Origin: a virus
Taxonomy: Duplodnaviria; Heunggongvirae; Uroviricota; Caudoviricetes
DNA length: 15,628 nucleotides
Strand: one strand, 5' to 3'
Virus record (IMG/VR): IMGVR_UViG_2724679293_000002
Shown here: positions 1-4,328 of the stretch, piece after piece
How positions within the stretch are numbered: the stretch's first letter is position 1
How the letters are laid out: each line of letters begins with the position of its first letter
The notes under the pieces: generated by a model
Seen by the model: the letters and a program-made list of their open reading frames with translations, nothing else
What the model was told of the DNA's origin: nothing
Database searches by the model: none
Position numbers and translations under genes: made by a program

Positions 1-1
1 T

Positions 2-628
2 GCAGATACGTCCGTTCGCACAATCTCCCTGCTGCCGGCAGCCGGAGAGGCTGCTGCGCAGGGCTGGAGCATTAAGGATGGCGGAATTCAGTTGTCAGAT
101 GGTGTATTTAAGATCACCAAGCAGAGCAATAAAACCTGGTCCCTGACGCATCCGGTGGATGACGCAATTACCCTGCTGACACAGGGCGGCAGACTGACCT
201 GTAAGTTCCGCCTGTCAGGCGCACTGACCAACAATCAGTTCGGGCTGGGGATTTATCTGTATACGGATGCTCCCGTTCCTGATGGTGTGGCGATGACGGG
301 TACCGGTAATCCGTTCCTGATGTCGTACTTCACTCAGACCACTGACGGCAGAGTGAATCTGATGCATCACAGGAAAGCCGGAAACACGAAGCTGGGGGAG
401 TTCGGCGATTACGGTAACGACTGGCAGACGCTGGAGCTGGTGTTCACCGCCGGCAGTGCCACGGTTACTCCGAAACTGAATGGAGTGGCTGGCCCGGCAT
501 TCCAGGTTATAAAAGACAGTCTGACACTGGGACTGAATGCGCTGACGCTGACGGATGTTACAAAAAATGCAGCGTATGGCGTTGAGATAGAAAGTCTGAT
601 GCTGGAGATAAATGCACCGGCAGCATAA
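2..628 (+). CDS. C-terminal fragment of a larger late-region protein of unknown function; 5' end lies outside the window
   Basis: The reading frame of the 92..628 ORF stays open back to position 2 with no stop, so the listed TTG start is probably internal. The translation is beta-rich and Gly/Thr-rich, with no motif I can assign. It sits where lambdoid phages carry cargo genes between Q and the lysis cassette. Confidence 0.5.
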   Translation, partial: ADTSVRTISLLPAAGEAAAQGWSIKDGGIQLSDGVFKITKQSNKTWSLTHPVDDAITLLTQGGRLTCKFRLSGALTNNQFGLGIYLYTDAPVPDGVAMTGTGNPFLMSYFTQTTDGRVNLMHHRKAGNTKLGEFGDYGNDWQTLELVFTAGSATVTPKLNGVAGPAFQVIKDSLTLGLNALTLTDVTKNAAYGVEIESLMLEINAPAA

Positions 629-930
629 TAAAAAAAGCCAGCGACTGACCTGAAAAAGAAGACGCTGGCTAAAAGGCCTTATATGTTTGTAGAGACTTAT
701 TTTTCACAGACAGCAATGATGCCTGTCAATATATTATCAATATGCGGATTGTTTCAGTTACAGATGCCTTATTAAGGAAAAAAACAGCCAGCACTGACTT
801 TCGGTGGAGAGGTGCTGGCTCAAAAGGATAGATGTACTTCACATGTTGCTTCTATATGGCAGTACATTTTCTGACAGACAGTGACGGATGTTGTCAAGAT
901 ATTGTGTCATTTATAACCTGAATCAGGGGA
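629..930. repeat. Two diverged tandem copies of a ~150-bp non-coding module
   Basis: Copy A (~629-780) and copy B (~779-930) align block by block: aaaaaaagccagcgactgac / aaaaaaacagccagcactgac, ctggctaaaaggcc / ctggctcaaaaggat, ttttcacagacagcaatgatgcctgtcaatatatt / ttttctgacagacagtgacggatgttgtcaagatatt. Each copy has an A-run followed by an inverted repeat. Confidence 0.6.
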
Positions 931-994
931 GGCCGGAATGTTATCTGGCATTTTTAGCAGAGCCTGAATGCCATAATCACGGCTCCCGGCGTTG

Positions 995-1030
995 GCCGTC
1001 AGTGGGTGACACTGGCGGCTTTTTTGTTTT
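995..1030 (+). terminator. Rho-independent terminator-like hairpin with T-run upstream of the holin gene
   Basis: A 10-bp stem (gccgtcagtg / cactggcggc, one G-U pair) with a 5-nt loop is followed by tttttttgtttt. Confidence 0.5.
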
Positions 1031-1075
1031 TCTTTACTTTCATTTTCTGTCGGCGGTGACGGAGACATACATCAG

Positions 1076-1282
1076 ATGGAAAAAATCACAACAGGTGTGT
1101 CATACACCACGTCAGCGGTGGGGACGGGATACTGGTTACTGCAGCTGCTGGACAAAGTCTCTCCGTCCCAGTGGGTGGCAATAGGTGTGCTGGGAAGTCT
1201 GCTGTTTGGCCTGCTGACGTATCTGACAAATCTTTATTTCAAGATTAAAGAAGATAAGCGTAAGGCTGCGAGAGGTGAATAA
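1076..1282 (+). CDS. S: Phage-21-type class II holin (pinholin), 68 aa
   Basis: The sequence [22 protein letters not shown]...[36 protein letters not shown] has two transmembrane domains and a charged C-terminus, matching my recollection of S21. A GGAG Shine-Dalgarno sits 11 nt upstream, and the gene lies directly 5' of the endolysin with a 1-nt start/stop overlap. Confidence 0.9.
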
Positions 1283-1779
1283 TGTCGCCGTCATTACGCA
1301 AGGCTGTTGCAGCTGCTATTGGTGGTGGGGCTGTTGCCATAGCGTCTGTGCTCATCACTGGTCCAGGTGGTAACGATGGTCTGGAAGGTGTCAGCTACAT
1401 ACCATACAAAGATATCGTTGGCGTATGGACTGTATGTCACGGACACACCGGAAAAGACATCATGCCCGGTAAAACGTATACCGAAGCAGAATGCAAAGCC
1501 CTCCTGAATAAAGACCTTGCCACGGTCGCCAGACAAATTAACCCGTACATCAACGTCGATATACCGGAAACAACGCGCGGCGCTCTTTACTCGTTCGTTT
1601 ACAACGTGGGCGCTGGCAATTTCAGAACATCGACGCTTCTTCGCAAAATAAACCAGGGCGATATCAAAGGCGCATGTGATCAGCTACGGCGCTGGACATA
1701 CGCTGGCGGTAAGCAATGGAAAGGGCTGATGACTCGCCGCGAGATTGAGCGTGAAGTCTGTTTGTGGGGGCAACAATGA
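1282..1779 (+). CDS. R: SAR endolysin (T4-lysozyme-like muramidase, R21 type), 165 aa
   Basis: The N-terminus carries a Gly/Ala-rich signal-anchor-release segment ([23 protein letters not shown]), followed by the lysozyme catalytic region [25 protein letters not shown]. It sits between holin and spanin genes. Confidence 0.92.
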
Positions 1780-2213
1780 GCAGGGTAACCGTTATTATCT
1801 CCGCTCTGGTTATCTGCATTATCGCCTGCCTGTCATGGGCTGTTAATCATTACCGTGATAACGCCATCGCCTACAAAGAGCAGCGCGATAAAGCCACATC
1901 CATCATCGCTGATATGCAGAAGCGGCAACGTGATGTAGCAGAACTTGACGCCAGATACACAAAGGAGCTTGCTGATGCTAATGCGACTATCGAAAGTCTC
2001 CGTGCTGATGTTTCTGCTGGGCGTAAGCGCCTGCAAGTCTCCGCCACCTGTGCAAAGTCAACGACCGGAGCCAGCAGCATGGGCGATGGAGAAAGCCCAG
2101 GACTTACAGCAGATGCTGAACTCAATTATTACCGTCTCCGAGGTGGAATCGACAAGATAACCGCGCAGGTTAACTACCTGCAGGAATACATCAGGACGCA
2201 GTGCTTAAAATAA
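1776..2213 (+). CDS. Rz: Inner-membrane spanin Rz (i-spanin)
   Basis: It starts [29 protein letters not shown], an N-terminal transmembrane domain followed by a coiled-coil-like region, as in lambda Rz. ATG 1776 overlaps the R stop (ATGA); the listed ORF start at 1764 is an in-frame GTG extension. Confidence 0.85.
1975..2160 (+). CDS. Rz1: Outer-membrane lipoprotein spanin Rz1 (o-spanin), embedded in the +1 frame of Rz
   Basis: [20 protein letters not shown] has a lipobox (VSAC), followed by the proline-rich [16 protein letters not shown]. An AAGGAG Shine-Dalgarno lies 8 nt upstream of ATG 1975; ATG 1981 is an alternative start. Confidence 0.8.
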
Positions 2214-2253
2214 TTTTAATTTCACTGAAATTTAACAAGTGACTTTCAGGAAA

Positions 2254-2280
2254 ATGCCTCGCAGATGCGGGGCATTTTTG
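2254..2280 (+). terminator. Rho-independent terminator-like hairpin after the lysis cassette
   Basis: Stem atgcctcgc / gcggggcat with loop agat, followed by ttttt. Confidence 0.6.
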
Positions 2281-2362
2281 TACCGGTATTTCACCGCGCA
2301 CCGCAGCGCACAATAAACACCGAACCTGACCCTTTGGAATGGGCCTTTGAGGATACCAGTTA

Positions 2363-2980
2363 GTGCTGGCGAGCCTCGGTGGGCTGGTTTCCTGTGCGGC
2401 AAAGGTTCATTTCAAAGAAGCAGGCAACGCCATGAATGAATTAATTGCGAATCATGACTTCGACTTTCGCCAGTTAGTTACCGCAGCAGAAGGTCAACCG
2501 GTAACTGACACCTTCCAGATTGCCAGGGCATTTGGTAAACGCCATCAGCATGTGATTAGGGCTATTAAATGTTTGAGATGTTCTGAGGAATTCTCGACAA
2601 CCCATTTTGGGGCCGTCGAGAAAATCAATGACTTAGGTATTTTTGACAAGAAACAGATTTACTACCGCATGGACTTTAGTGGCTTCGTTATGCTGGTTAT
2701 GGGATTTAACGGGGCAAAAGCCGATGCTGTTAAAGAAGCCTATATCAATGCGTTTAACTGGATGTCAGCAGAACTCCGTAAGTACAGCGAAAGTTATGAA
2801 GCAGAACGTAACGCCGTAATGCTGGAGTACATGAAAGAGAAGGATGTCGCCAGCATGTCAGGCCGTCTGCTCAATCGCTGGGGGAGAACGAAAAAACCTC
2901 AATTGCTTGCAAAGCTGGAACGTCTGGAGAGACAGGGACAGTTTTTATTACCGGGATTCGATAAAGGTATTCAAGCCTGA
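2363..2980 (+). CDS. Phage regulatory protein, Rha family (pRha domain)
   Basis: The motif FGKRHQHVIRAIKCL matches the pRha signature (FGKRH.NVLRDI) as I remember it. The start is ambiguous: GTG 2363 has a GAGGA Shine-Dalgarno 10 nt upstream (205 aa), while ATG 2432 has a weak one (182 aa). Confidence 0.75.
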   Translation: MLASLGGLVSCAAKVHFKEAGNAMNELIANHDFDFRQLVTAAEGQPVTDTFQIARAFGKRHQHVIRAIKCLRCSEEFSTTHFGAVEKINDLGIFDKKQIYYRMDFSGFVMLVMGFNGAKADAVKEAYINAFNWMSAELRKYSESYEAERNAVMLEYMKEKDVASMSGRLLNRWGRTKKPQLLAKLERLERQGQFLLPGFDKGIQA

Positions 2981-3167
2981 CACATTATGCGCTGTATCGT
3001 CGCCGTATTCCCGCATTAACCATGACCGTAGCCCGACGGGGAATTCCTTCTGCGTGAGTGTGCGGGAATAATCAAAAACGATGCACACCGGGTTTTACTG
3101 TGCTGACAGACGCAGGGTTACCCTCATAGTCGCTTTTCCGGTGCGATGGTGGAAGAAACCGGGATGT

Positions 3168-3362
3168 TCATCCATCATCACTTTGGATTGATGTATATGC
3201 TCTCTTTTCTGACGTTAGTCTCCGACGGCAGGCTTCAATGACCCAGGCTGAGAAATTCCCAGACCCTTTTTGCTCAAGAGCGATGTTAATTTGTTCAATC
3301 ATTTGGTTAGGAAAGCGGATGTTGCGGGTTGTTGTTCTGCGGGTTCTGTTCTTCGTTGACAT
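3168..3362 (-). CDS. Small ribbon-helix-helix-like DNA-binding protein (YlcI-like), 64 aa
   Basis: MSTKNRTRRTTTRNIRFPNQMIEQINIALEQKGSGNFSAWVIEACRRRL reads as a basic N-terminal arm, a beta strand (IRFP), helix A, a Gly loop and helix B. A homologous small ORF lies at the extreme right end of lambda and next to nohD in DLP12, from memory. Confidence 0.7.
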   Translation of the reverse strand: MSTKNRTRRTTTRNIRFPNQMIEQINIALEQKGSGNFSAWVIEACRRRLTSEKRAYTSIQSDDG

Positions 3363-3526
3363 GAGGTTGCCCCGTATTCAGTGTCGCTGATTTGTATTGT
3401 CTGAAGTTGTTTTTACGTTAAGTTGACGCAGATCAATTAATACGATACCTGCGTCATAATTGATTATTTGACGTGGTTTGATGGCGTAGATGCACGTTGT
3501 GACATGTAGATGATAATTATTATCAT

Positions 3527-3598
3527 TTTGCGGGTCCTTTCCGGCGATCCGACAGGTTACGGGGCGGCGACCTCGCGGGTTTTCGCTATTTATGAAAA
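3527..3598. other. cos: cos site: cosQ region and cosN, with the 12-nt cohesive end GGGCGGCGACCT at 3562-3573
   Basis: gggtcctttccggcgatccgacaggttacg | GGGCGGCGACCT | cgcgggttttcgctatttatgaaaattttccgg matches the lambda right-end/left-end junction as I recall it. Confidence 0.9.
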
Positions 3599-3609
3599 TT
3601 TTCCGGGAT

Positions 3610-3711
3610 CCATGTCCGGTTTCTCTTCAAGTTAACTATATGAAAAATATAAAAACAGGTCTTCTGTGAACCGGACATGAACAAAAAACAGACATGTAAA
3701 CCGGACATGAC
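3610..3711. repeat. cosB-position repeat array: three copies of G(A/T)AACCGGACATG(A/G), one inverted and two direct
   Basis: The core CCGGACATG occurs at 3671-3679 and 3701-3709 and as its reverse complement at 3611-3619. An A-tract-rich spacer (3624-3660) separates the inverted copy from the direct copies. No lambda R-site motif (cgtttcc / ggaaacg) is present. Confidence 0.5.
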
Positions 3712-3794
3712 CGGTTTTGTTGTGATTGTGAGGTGAGAGTTTTTGCGAGGTGAGGAGTGGCTACGCAGACTGAAGTTGCCAGGCATTTAAGTCT

Positions 3795-3800
3795 NNNNNN
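3795..3800. other. Run of six ambiguous bases (N), 8 bp upstream of the Nu1 start codon
   Basis: The sequence reads gtctnnnnnnaatgaacaATG. Confidence 0.95.
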
Positions 3801-3808
3801 AATGAACA

Positions 3809-4328
3809 ATGGAAGTCAACAAAAAGCAGCTGGCTGACATTTTCGGCGCGAGTATCCGTACCATTCAGAACTGGCAGGAGCAGGGAATGCCCGTTCTGCG
3901 GGGTGGTGGCAAGGGTAATGAAGTGCTTTATGACTCTGCCGCCGCCATAAAATGGTATGCCGAAAGGGATGCTGAAATTGAGAACGAAAAGCTGCGCCGG
4001 GAAGTTGAAGAACTGCGGCAGGCCAGCGAGACAGATCTCCAGCCAGGGACTATTGAGTACGAACGCCATCGACTTACGCGTGCGCAGGCCGACGCACAGG
4101 AGCTGAAAAATGCCAGAGACTCCGCTGAAGTGGTGGAAACCGCATTCTGTACTTTCGTGCTGTCGCGGATCGCAGGTGAAATTGCCAGTATTCTCGACGG
4201 GATCCCCCTGTCGGTGCAGCGGCGTTTTCCGGAACTGGAAAACCGACATGTTGATTTCCTGAAACGGGATATCATCAAAGCCATGAACAAAGCAGCCGCG
4301 CTGGATGAACTGATACCGGGGTTGCTGA

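What the first reader, a model, noticed from the sequence alone, without database searches (positions are those of the whole stretch)
2214..3167. Rha-family regulator module between the lysis cassette and cos, with an ambiguous start and a mosaic joint near 3100-3170
A terminator-like hairpin (2254-2280) separates the spanin genes from a Rha-family gene, so Rha may have its own promoter. In lambda this position is occupied by bor and a putative envelope gene, so this is a replaced accessory slot. The Rha start is uncertain: GTG 2363 has a strong Shine-Dalgarno and would add 23 residues including an LVSC lipobox-like tetrapeptide, while ATG 2432 has a weak one. Rha-family proteins are linked to interference with lytic growth in some hosts, so this cargo could affect induction outcome.
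Basis: partly seen in the sequence, partly recalled or inferred. Interest (0 to 1): 0.45.

Follow-up and report, generated by a model that had tools for sequence, protein, structure and literature searches.

The report
P22-type rha with structured leader
The gene is an ordinary, already known phage regulator (an ortholog of phage P22 rha), but it is preceded by a widely conserved, apparently undescribed folded RNA leader, which shows that the annotated GTG start is almost certainly wrong and which probably controls the gene's expression.

Summary
Window 2432-2980 encodes a Rha-family protein (Phage_pRha plus a C-terminal ORF11CD3 domain) that is 84% identical to P22 Rha/ORF201. It lies after Rz/Rz1 and a real intrinsic-terminator hairpin (2250-2279), where lambda carries bor-p78-p79. 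Mosaic joints lie at about 1810, 2901-2988 and 3095-3151.

The start ambiguity resolves to ATG 2432. GTG 2363 and its "strong SD" lie inside a ~125-nt conserved element (2294-2418). That element precedes unrelated genes (Rha, KilA-N, Bro-N, P22_AR_N, HNH_3, T5orf172), all starting at the equivalent ATG.

The element is a structured RNA:
- It has a hairpin, a long irregular helix and two long-range pairings.
- 96-98% of cells are paired, against ~40% when the partners are slid.
- Up to 12 pairs show compensatory changes.
- G-U wobbles are strand-specific.

The GTG is absent in 21 of 106 unique copies with a recognisable main start, and is fused in frame in only 15. The lipobox idea is rejected, and no independent promoter was found.

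No Rfam family and no paper matches the leader. It occurs across Enterobacterales and in 840 of 5,426 complete E. coli genomes. Its function is inferred (translational or stability control), not shown.

The parts
1810..2901 (+). P22-like block: 3' part of Rz with embedded Rz1, terminator, leader and most of rha
   Evidence: blastn gives 91.5% identity to P22 NC_002371 39022-40113. By segment: Rz part 94.3%, leader 97.8%, rha CDS 86.6%.
2250..2285 (+). Intrinsic-terminator hairpin (stem 2250-2279, loop AGAU) plus U-tract, after the Rz stop at 2213
   Evidence: dG -21.4 kcal/mol, z -4.3. Annotated as a terminator at the same place in HK544 and ES18. A hairpin plus T-run with varied stem sequences occurs in 175 of 200 related loci.
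2294..2418 (+). Conserved structured leader RNA. It comprises hairpin H1 2296-2309; a long helix P1-P2-P3 2332-2349 with 2400-2417; a helix that pairs the GAGGA, 2351-2357(-2361) with (2382-)2386-2392; and an apical region 2362-2381.
   Evidence: Covariance model R1 hits it at 136.6 bits, E 3e-32, and it is the only strong hit in the window. On the alignments 96-98% of cells are paired, against ~40% when partners are slid, and 7-12 pairs show compensatory changes. RNAalifold and the single-sequence MFE recover the same helices. No Rfam match.
2301..2305 (+). K1 5' strand (the CCGCA loop of H1), pairing with UGCGG at 2395-2399
   Evidence: 96% of cells paired. Compensatory variants are UCGCA/UGCGA and CCGCAAU/AUUGCGG.
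2318..2323 (+). K2 5' strand (CACCGA), pairing with UCGGUG at 2376-2381 in the apical loop (pseudoknot or alternative pairing)
   Evidence: Four sequence types keep perfect Watson-Crick pairing: CACCGA/UCGGUG 86, CGUCGA/UCGACG 79, CAUCGA/UCGAUG 20, CACAGA/UCUGUG 1. 99% of cells are paired and 3 pairs are compensatory.
2363..2365 (+). GTG used as the start by PGAP and by the P22 annotation. Judged not to be the Rha start; it lies in the loop of the alternative P4 hairpin 2355-2370.
   Evidence: It is replaced by GCG, GAG or unrelated loop sequences in 21 of 109 unique copies and is fused in frame with the main ORF in only 15. The GAGGA upstream is base-paired.
2432..2980 (+). rha coding sequence (182 aa): Rha DNA-binding domain at about nt 2504-2767, ORF11CD3 domain at about nt 2792-2953
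   Evidence: Pfam, NCBIfam and PHROG matches. 84% aa identity to P22 Rha. Diverged homologues are mostly 177-184 aa. Nucleotide identity drops and third-codon-position bias begins exactly here.
2902..2987 (+). Joint inside the 3' end of rha, where P22 homology ends
   Evidence: P22 homology stops at 2901, while phage IdasGreatGrand stays about 90% identical to 3162.
2988..3095 (+). Remnant of the lambda bor-p78 intergenic region
   Evidence: 82.6% identity to lambda 46868-46974.
3096..3150 (.). Junction that replaces about 1.1 kb of lambda (p78, p79)
   Evidence: There is no lambda match between 3095 and 3151. Lambda 46974-48092 is absent.
3151..3561 (.). Lambda-like right end up to cosN, including the YlcI/YnfO (DUF3950) gene at 3168-3362 on the minus strand
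   Evidence: 95.9% identity to lambda 48092-48502. DUF3950 E 2e-20. PGAP names it YlcI/YnfO.

Best explanation
This is the P22-type rha cassette in a lambda-like E. coli prophage. The cassette is an intrinsic terminator (2250-2285), a ~125-nt structured leader RNA (2294-2418), and rha (182 aa, starting at ATG 2432).

Shown here:
- The protein has a Rha-family DNA-binding N-domain and an ORF11CD3 C-domain, and is an ortholog of P22 Rha.
- The leader is a conserved, strand-specific, base-paired element with two long-range pairings.
- The same leader precedes interchangeable genes (Rha, KilA-N, Bro-N, P22_AR_N, HNH_3/AP2, T5orf172), all at a fixed distance before their ATG.
- GTG 2363 and GAGGA are structural parts of that RNA.

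Inferred:
- The cassette has no promoter of its own. It is transcribed from the late promoter by Q-modified, terminator-resistant polymerase.
- In a lysogen the terminator insulates it from stray upstream transcription.
- The folded leader, which ends 3-4 nt before the ribosome-binding site, sets the translation start and limits or times translation (or stability) of a potentially harmful DNA-binding protein.
- It may do this by switching between two conformers: the P4 hairpin, or the helix that sequesters GAGGA.
- By analogy with its P22 and phi80 orthologs, Rha then acts as a DNA-binding regulator or antirepressor-like protein that harms lytic growth when IHF is missing.
For: Gene identity:
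- Profile matches.
- 84% aa identity to P22 Rha and the same position after Rz/Rz1.

Start codon:
- The leader is shared with KilA-N genes of Stx2 phage 1717 and HK544, with ES18, and with an HNH gene of Klebsiella phage RothC. Homology ends about 12 nt before the ATG, and there are stop codons in the GTG frame.
- Of 109 unique copies, 21 lack a start codon at the GTG site, 32 stop before the main ATG, 20 overlap it, 18 run out of frame into the main ORF, and 15 are fused in frame.
- One-nucleotide indels occur within the putative extension.
- Diverged Rha homologues are mostly 177-184 aa.
- PHROG 518 aligns from residue 1 of the ATG form.
- Identity to P22 is 97.8% in the leader against 86.6% in the CDS. 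Substitutions by codon position are 12:11:40 only from 2432 onward.

RNA structure:
- A3: 98.2% of cells paired, against 37-44% when slid.
- A4: 12 pairs with compensatory changes, and 0 of 500 shuffles reach this.
- K2 occurs in four perfectly complementary sequence types.
- G-U/A-U alternation occurs on the + strand only. The reverse-strand CM score is 24 bits against 137 bits.
- The MFE of the window's leader shows the same fold, with GAGGA paired.

Distribution:
- More than 120 IMG/VR contigs and many Enterobacterales genera.
- 840 of 5,426 complete E. coli genomes. PGAP leaves the leader unannotated when the next gene is not rha.

Context:
- 111 of 186 copies follow an Rz-like spanin, 10 follow Q, and the rest follow other late-region genes.
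- BTP1 late genes form one large operon (PMC7067206).
Against: - No experiment supports any function of the leader. Translation or stability control is an inference from its position.
- The anti-SD pairing of the main ribosome-binding site (CCUG 2325-2328 with CAGG 2421-2424 in the MFE) is not longer than in shuffled controls across the family. Simple SD sequestration is therefore not established.
- The centre of the fold is ambiguous. P5 breaks in divergent genera, while P4 and the extended helix are both kept.
- Covariation cannot tell whether K1 and K2 form together with the long helix or alternate with it.
- In the window and P22 clade the GTG frame is open and in frame. Some initiation at GTG cannot be excluded without N-terminal data.
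- A weak, non-consensus promoter cannot be excluded by a consensus scan.
- The primary rha papers (Henthorn and Friedman 1995; Mozola et al. 1985) could not be read.
Confidence: 0.75

Rival explanations
1. GTG 2363 is the true start, as in RefSeq/PGAP and the classical P22 ORF201 annotation. This gives a 205-aa Rha with a 23-residue N-terminal extension, possibly a lipoprotein signal (LVSC).
For: - The ORF is open from the GTG, with GAGGA 8-9 nt upstream.
- PGAP calls the 205-aa form, and P22 rha is annotated from the equivalent codon.
- Close relatives in the protein database are 200-205 aa.
Against: - The extension is not conserved as protein. The GTG is lost in 21 of 109 copies, the frame is broken or shifted in most, and it is in frame in only 15.
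- The sequence covaries as RNA, and the GAGGA is paired.
- Family profiles start at the ATG form, and diverged homologues are mostly 177-184 aa.
- As a signal peptide it has no K/R n-region, and its Cys is at position 11 of a cytoplasmic DNA-binding protein (direct reading).
Confidence: 0.06
2. The conserved block is a regulatory upstream ORF: a leader peptide of about 19-23 codons starting at GTG 2363. Its translation opens the helix and couples ribosomes to the main ATG.
For: - 85 of 106 copies keep GAGG plus GTG.
- In 52 of those 85 the short frame ends 0-12 nt before the main ATG or overlaps it (ATGA type).
- The alternative P4 hairpin would expose GAGGA and place the GUG in its loop.
Against: - The start codon is absent in whole lineages: Xenorhabdus, Photorhabdus, Yersinia, Rosenbergiella and Citrobacter-type copies.
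- Loop indels shift the frame (L029, L137, L139).
- Changes are non-synonymous and follow base pairing rather than codons.
- In the window itself the frame is fused to rha rather than terminated.
Confidence: 0.15
3. The 5' part of the leader (H1 plus the single strand, 2294-2325) works like the P1/P7 c4 antisense RNA. Two short sequences (K1, K2) pair with two target sites downstream, in cis or after processing in trans. The exchangeable K1/K2 sequence types would act as specificity (immunity-like) classes for an antirepressor-type gene.
For: - There are two separate 5-6-nt complementarities with several covarying sequence types.
- The downstream genes are antirepressor-like.
- One contig with two copies carries two different K1/K2 types (L044).
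- RNA control of antirepressor genes is a known theme: P22 sar (annotation) and IsrK-orf45-anrP (PMC4825925).
Against: - No Rfam C4 match, even at E<=10.
- The target sites lie 35-55 nt upstream of the main start, not on its ribosome-binding site.
- Two other contigs with two copies share the same K2 type (L031, L045).
- There is no evidence of processing or of a separate small RNA.
Confidence: 0.1
4. The block is only a conserved DNA 'linker' that promotes homologous recombination and cassette exchange between lambdoid phages, or a protein-binding DNA site. It would have no RNA-level function.
For: - It sits exactly at a mosaic boundary.
- Different genes follow it.
- It is more conserved than the flanking genes.
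Against: - Compensatory changes preserve pairing across genera.
- G-U wobbles are tolerated on one strand only.
- Loop regions vary while stems are kept.

A recombination role may still be a by-product.
Confidence: 0.04
5. rha has its own promoter between the terminator and the ATG and is expressed independently of late transcription, for example in the lysogen.
For: - A terminator directly upstream is typical of autonomous 'moron' cassettes.
- Rha-family genes are often described as regulators.
Against: - No promoter-like hexamers in 2214-2432.
- No conserved -35/-10 in the alignments; the 1717-type copies lack the ATTTCACC segment altogether.
- Rha of P22 is described as a late-operon gene (PMC4936722).
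- No IHF consensus in the leader.
Confidence: 0.1

Closest known systems
Phage P22 rha (ORF201) and phage phi80 rha
   Same: The window protein is 84% identical to P22 Rha. It occupies the same position after Rz/Rz1 and before the packaging genes, with the same terminator and leader (97.8% identical). These are the genes for which the Rha phenotype, inhibition of phage growth in IHF-deficient hosts, was defined (PMC4936722).
   Different: Here the cassette sits in a lambda-like cos phage with an S21-type holin and a SAR lysozyme. The last ~25 codons and the downstream DNA are not P22-like. The phenotype was not tested. phi80 was not examined here.
Lambda bor-p78-p79 accessory region
   Same: It is the same slot between Rz and cos. 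Remnants of the lambda sequence flank the insert: 2988-3095 and 3151-3561.
   Different: bor, p78 and p79 are absent. They are replaced by the terminator-leader-rha cassette.
P1/P7 immI: c4 antisense RNA - icd - ant
   Same: An antirepressor-type gene lies behind a structured RNA. That RNA carries two short complementary sequence pairs whose covarying variants could define specificity, and a short ORF lies upstream of the main gene.
   Different: There is no sequence or model similarity (Rfam C4 not hit). The complementary sites are not on a ribosome-binding site. The short ORF is not conserved. No processing is known. The location is the late operon.
Gifsy-1 IsrK - orf45 - anrP (PMC4825925) and P22 sar - ant
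   Same: These are prophage antirepressor genes kept translationally silent or limited by RNA structure or antisense RNA.
   Different: The sequences are different, with no Rfam isrK hit. Those systems have their own promoters and a trans-acting small RNA; nothing of that kind is shown here.
Shuffled KilA-N / Bro-N / Rha / P22_AR_N / ORF11CD3 domain proteins of DNA viruses (Iyer, Koonin and Aravind 2002, from my own knowledge)
   Same: The genes found behind the leader are exactly this set of interchangeable DNA-binding N-domains with ORF11CD3 or P63C C-domains, plus HNH_3/AP2 and T5orf172.
   Different: That work concerns the proteins. A shared structured RNA leader upstream of them was not found in Rfam or in the searchable literature.

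Membership tests
Phage_pRha (PF09669 / TIGR02681) | Profile match above the curated cutoff | tested here: met
   PF09669 scores 76.3 bits against 29.9. TIGR02681 scores 73.7 bits against 45.95. PHROG 518 'Rha-like transcriptional regulator' E 1.5e-86.
Phage_pRha (functional definition: Rha phenotype) | The product inhibits lytic growth in IHF-deficient (himA/hip) hosts | not testable with these tools
   Known only for the P22 and phi80 genes (PMC4936722). The window protein is 84% identical to P22 Rha.
ORF11CD3 domain (PF10549) | Profile match above the cutoff at the C-terminus | tested here: met
   81.7 bits against 25, full-length profile 1-54. It is the most conserved part of the family alignment.
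Bacterial lipoprotein (lipobox on the GTG-form N-terminus) | Positively charged n-region, a hydrophobic h-region, then [LVI][ASTVI][GAS]C, conserved among orthologs | tested here: not met
   MLASLGGLVSC has no K/R before the Cys. The extension is missing or out of frame in most relatives.
Intrinsic (rho-independent) terminator | GC-rich hairpin followed by a U-tract, with structure kept among relatives | tested here: met
   dG -21.4, z -4.3. T-run in 175 of 200 loci, with different stems. Annotated as a terminator in HK544 and ES18. Termination itself was not measured.
Any Rfam 15 family (including C4 antisense RNA, isrK and phage leaders) | Covariance-model score at or above the gathering threshold | tested here: not met
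   The best hits are generic terminator matches at 12-21 bits, against thresholds of 37-127 bits.
tRNA / tmRNA-like element | ARAGORN detection | tested here: not met
   No tRNA or tmRNA in the window.
Leader-peptide (uORF) attenuator | Conserved start codon and reading frame of the short ORF | tested here: not met
   No start codon in 21 of 109 copies. Frame-shifting indels occur, and the stop position varies.
Structured cis-regulatory leader RNA (generic kind) | A conserved secondary structure supported by covariation, strand-specific, at a fixed position upstream of the start codon | tested here: met
   A regulatory effect was not tested.
Riboswitch | Ligand-binding aptamer with ligand-dependent conformational change | not testable with these tools
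   The only hint is two mutually exclusive helices, P4 and the extended GAGGA helix, both conserved.
Anti-phage defence protein (PADLOC) | Match to a defence-system model | tested here: not met
   No PADLOC family for Rha or for the YlcI-like protein.

The most novel reading that the evidence does not exclude
The 2294-2418 leader may found a new class of phage regulatory RNA. It would be a pseudoknotted switch that gates a swappable cassette of antirepressor-like (Rha, KilA-N, Bro-N, P22_AR_N) and homing-endonuclease-like (HNH_3, T5orf172) genes in the late operon of temperate phages across Enterobacterales. It would act either by responding to a cellular or phage factor (riboswitch-like) or as a cis/trans antisense module. 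In the second case its exchangeable K1/K2 pairing types would act as specificity classes.
Probability: 0.35. Interest if true: 0.8.

Novelty: new variant of a known kind. Interest (0 to 1): 0.6.

Why it matters
**Annotation.** The 205-aa RefSeq 'Rha family transcriptional regulator' and the classical P22 ORF201 (201 aa) probably carry a false 23-residue N-terminus. That N-terminus is translated from a structured RNA.

**Biology.** The proteins behind this leader are notoriously domain-shuffled phage proteins, often toxic or switch-flipping. Finding one conserved RNA in front of all of them suggests a shared post-transcriptional control. It may help explain why such genes can be carried in the late operon and exchanged as cassettes. 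It may also bear on the long-unexplained IHF dependence of rha.

**Discovery.** The leader is a strongly covarying, ~125-nt pseudoknotted RNA. It is present in about 15% of complete E. coli genomes and in model phage P22, yet absent from Rfam. It is directly testable in a well-developed genetic system.

Tried and rejected
- **Promoter scan of 600-3900.** Nothing between the terminator and the ATG.
- **IHF consensus WATCAANNNNTTR.** No site in the leader. There is one perfect site inside rha (2623-2635). Counts are not above chance.
- **Rfam.** Searched at E<=1 over 3.3 kb and at E<=10 over 211 nt; only sub-threshold terminator look-alikes.
- **tRNA-like idea**, prompted by the RothC copy next to tRNAs. 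ARAGORN found nothing.
- **Sequestration of the main SD by the invariant GAACC.** The runs are mostly 3 bp and no better than shuffles. Kept only as a possibility for the window and the 1717-type copies.
- **P5 hairpin (2372-2375 / 2382-2385)**, which I first drew by eye. It breaks in divergent genera.
- **uORF and lipobox.** Both rejected.
- **Defence role.** No PADLOC hit.
- **Literature.** The primary rha papers are not held. No paper contains the leader sequence or describes an RNA motif upstream of Rha/KilA/Bro genes. One 2026 preprint on non-coding elements could not be opened.
- **Gapless repeat finder on 600-1080.** It missed the loose duplication that an alignment later showed.
Full report
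**1. What is in the window**

The window is the late region of a lambdoid E. coli prophage. In order it holds:
- the 3' end of a SASA/DUF6645 esterase gene (to 628);
- an S21-type holin (1076-1282);
- a lysozyme that PGAP names RrrD (1282-1779);
- Rz with embedded Rz1 (1776-2213);
- the ORF of the finding (to 2980);
- a convergent YlcI/YnfO DUF3950 gene (3168-3362, minus strand);
- cosN (~3562), then Nu1 and A.

About 220 complete E. coli genomes carry at least 80% of the first 4.4 kb at more than 99% identity. The arrangement is therefore common.

**2. Checking the observation**

The ORF is a Rha-family gene. Pfam Phage_pRha scores 76.3 bits against a cutoff of 29.9, and TIGR02681 scores 73.7 bits against 45.95. 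PHROG 518 ('Rha-like transcriptional regulator') matches at E 1.5e-86. A C-terminal ORF11CD3 domain scores 81.7 bits against 25.

The hairpin after Rz is real. It has 13 pairs over 2250-2279, dG -21.4 kcal/mol and z -4.3, and a U-tract follows. The same position is annotated as a rho-independent terminator in HK544 and ES18. A hairpin plus T-run with quite different stem sequences precedes the element in 175 of 200 related loci.

**3. Mosaic anatomy**

- Window 1810-2901 is 91.5% identical to P22 gene 15/Rz1, the intergenic region and rha. Window 2363 aligns with the annotated start of P22 rha/ORF201.
- P22 homology stops at 2901, inside the last ~25 codons of rha. Phage IdasGreatGrand stays about 90% identical to 3162.
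- Window 2988-3095 is an 82.6% match to lambda 46868-46974, which lies between bor and p78. Window 3151-3561 is 95.9% identical to lambda 48092-48502.
- Relative to lambda, bor and about 1.1 kb holding p78 and p79 are therefore missing.
- The protein from ATG 2432 is 84% identical to P22 Rha. The gene itself is a known one.

**4. The start codon and an unexpected element**

A search with 2214-2560 found the stretch 2227/2256-2417/2444 in front of genes that are not rha. These are KilA-N genes in Stx2 phages and in HK544, an ES18 gene, and an HNH gene in Klebsiella phage RothC, where the element follows Q and two tRNAs.

Aligned, the block 2294-2418 is almost invariant. Homology ends about 12 nt before an ATG that corresponds to window 2432, and the GTG frame runs into TAG in those phages.

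An exact 19-mer from the block retrieved more than 120 IMG/VR contigs. A gapped pattern retrieved copies that vary in the core. A scan of one genome per species found true copies only in Enterobacterales. They include Enterobacter, Citrobacter, Kluyvera, Kosakonia, Trabulsiella, Cedecea, Yersinia, Xenorhabdus, Photorhabdus, Pantoea, Rosenbergiella, Izhakiella, Brenneria and Symbiopectobacterium.

The genes behind the block are a set of interchangeable small proteins:
- Rha, with or without ORF11CD3;
- KilA-N, alone or with ORF11CD3 or P63C;
- Bro-N;
- P22_AR_N with ORF11CD3;
- HNH_3, with or without AP2;
- T5orf172/MUG113.

Of 109 unique copies with enough downstream sequence:

| GTG-site outcome | Copies |
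|---|---|
| No start codon at the GTG site (GCG, GAG, or unrelated loop sequence) | 21 |
| GTG frame stops 0-12 nt before the main ATG | 32 |
| GTG frame stop overlaps the main ATG | 20 |
| GTG frame runs out of frame into the main ORF | 18 |
| GTG frame fused in frame (the window and P22 type) | 15 |
| No recognisable main start | 3 |

Several copies also carry 1-nt indels inside the putative extension.

Other evidence points the same way:
- Diverged Rha homologues in the protein database are mostly 177-184 aa.
- PHROG 518 aligns from residue 1 of the ATG form.
- Against P22, identity is 97.8% over the leader, with a single change in 2363-2431. From 2432 on it falls to 86.6%, and substitutions by codon position are 12:11:40.

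I conclude that Rha starts at ATG 2432. The 205-aa PGAP form and the 201-aa P22 form are over-extended. The LVSC 'lipobox' is an accident of translating non-coding sequence; it also lacks a charged n-region.

**5. The block is a structured RNA**

The pairings that the alignments support are, in window coordinates:
- **H1:** 2296-2299 with 2306-2309.
- **Long helix P1-P2-P3:** 2332-2349 with 2400-2417.
- **GAGGA helix:** 2351-2357 with 2386-2392, extendable to 2358-2361 with 2382-2385.
- **K1 (long-range):** the H1 loop 2301-2305 with 2395-2399.
- **K2 (long-range):** 2318-2323 with 2376-2381 in the apical loop.

On 80 IMG/VR sequences, 98.2% of cells form standard pairs, against 37-44% when partners are slid by 1-3 columns. 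Seven pairs show changes on both sides.

On 66 sequences below 93% mutual identity, from many genera, 12 pairs show compensatory changes, and 0 of 500 shuffles reach this. All four H1 pairs covary, and K2 is 99% paired with three covarying pairs.

K2 occurs in four perfectly complementary versions: CACCGA/UCGGUG (86), CGUCGA/UCGACG (79), CAUCGA/UCGAUG (20) and CACAGA/UCUGUG (1).

P1 changes from CUUUG/CAAAG to UUAGG/CCUAA in Xenorhabdus, Photorhabdus, Rosenbergiella and Symbiopectobacterium. In Yersinia it becomes AUUAG/CUAAU.

G-U/A-U alternations make the structure specific to the + strand. The covariance model scores 136.6 bits on the + strand against 24 bits on the reverse strand.

RNAalifold and a single-sequence fold recover the same hairpins. 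In the window's MFE (-53.6 kcal/mol) the GAGGA is paired, the GUG lies in the apical region, and the ATG 2432 region is open.

The centre of the fold is not resolved:
- A P5 hairpin that I drew first breaks in divergent genera.
- A P4 hairpin (2355-2359 with 2366-2370, with the GUG in its loop) and the extended GAGGA helix are both about 95% kept. They exclude each other, which may mean two conformers.
- Covariation cannot tell whether K1 and K2 coexist with the long helix as pseudoknots or alternate with it.

**6. Is the RNA known?**

- No Rfam 15 family reaches even a third of its threshold; the best hits are generic terminator matches.
- ARAGORN finds nothing.
- No held paper contains the sequence or describes an RNA motif upstream of Rha, KilA or Bro genes, and the 224-motif survey does not mention such genes.
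- The model finds a single copy in P22, upstream of rha, and none in the lambda right end.
- The leader occurs in 840 of 5,426 complete E. coli genomes, with up to 5 copies. It is left unannotated where the next gene is not rha.

**7. How it most likely works**

Shown:
- The cassette is terminator, then leader, then gene.
- It lies in late regions. 111 of 186 copies follow an Rz-like spanin and 10 follow Q. The rest follow other late-region genes such as an o-spanin, an endolysin, a Q-like protein or another cassette gene.
- The leader ends 3-4 nt before a conserved ribosome-binding site (AAGGTAnACGCnATG in most copies; CAGG plus 7 nt in the window).

Inferred:
- The cassette has no promoter of its own.
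- P22 rha is described as a late-operon gene (PMC4936722), and BTP1 late genes form one large polycistronic operon (PMC7067206).
- Transcription is therefore by terminator-resistant, Q-modified polymerase. The terminator silences the cassette in the lysogen.
- The folded leader then fixes the initiation site and limits or times translation, or stabilises the message, of proteins that can be harmful.

An anti-SD pairing (CCUG 2325-2328 with CAGG 2421-2424) appears in the window's MFE. It is not better than chance across the family, so I do not rely on it.

The protein itself is predicted to have an alpha/beta N-domain followed by long helices (pLDDT 74.5). Fold matches are weak, with Z no higher than 5.6, and go to small DNA-binding domains including Mbp1/APSES. 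There is no solved relative. This is compatible with a DNA-binding regulator but adds little.

No IHF consensus lies in the leader. How IHF affects rha remains open.

**8. Verdict**

- Its interpretation is partly right on three points: the Rha family, the replaced slot and the joint.
- It is wrong or unsupported on three points: the own promoter, the GTG start and the lipobox.
- The gene is already known.
- The conserved, covarying leader RNA appears to be undescribed, and it is the part worth following up.

Noticed in passing
window 3607-3800 (NNNNNN at 3795-3800): The cosB segment and a GTG-ATQTEVARHLS... start fragment (3560-3794) are 100% identical to EHEC prophages that carry a different small-terminase gene. 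Straight after a 6-N run the sequence switches to lambda-type Nu1. The otherwise 99.9%-identical genome CP180607 has a different 136-nt cosB here, and no complete E. coli genome spans the junction. This is probably a scaffold or assembly joint between two prophages, or a masked stretch. If it is real, it would pair lambda-type Nu1 with a foreign cosB carrying CCGGACATG repeats.
   Followed up: partly
window 626-925: A loose tandem duplication (~150 nt, 60-70% alike in its core) lies between the esterase gene and the holin. Each copy has an AGCCAGC...GCTGGCT hairpin and a TTTTC(A/T)GACAGACAG...TGTCAA(T/G)ATATT motif. Terminator-like hairpins are predicted at 635-651 (minus strand) and 994-1020 (plus strand).
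   Followed up: partly
L031, L044, L045 (IMG/VR contigs): Some phage contigs carry two terminator-leader-gene cassettes about 2 kb apart, for example an HNH_3 gene followed by a Rha gene. In L044 the two leaders have different K1 and K2 pairing types. In L031 and L045 they share the same K2 type.
   Followed up: partly
L223 (Pantoea conspicua) and L243: Natural truncated copies of the leader. L223 lacks the 5' domain (H1 and the K2 5' strand), and L243 loses homology after GGTTCAT. They could serve as natural deletion variants.
   Followed up: no
window 2792-2953 (Rha residues 121-174): The ORF11CD3 C-domain (MLEYMKEKDVASMSGRLLNRWG...KKPQL) is the most invariant part of the protein family. The same domain ends KilA-N and P22_AR_N proteins behind the same leader. 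The conserved leader (5') and this domain (3') could therefore act as homology arms for swapping the N-terminal DNA-binding domain.
   Followed up: no
window 2623-2635: A perfect match to the IHF consensus (AATCAATGACTTA) lies inside the rha coding sequence, not upstream of it. Overall counts in the window are not above chance.
   Followed up: no
window 1-628: The window opens in the 3' end of a 'SASA family carbohydrate esterase' gene (DUF6645). From my own knowledge, this gene is typical of Stx-phage late regions (NanS-p-like). No stx gene lies in the window.
   Followed up: no
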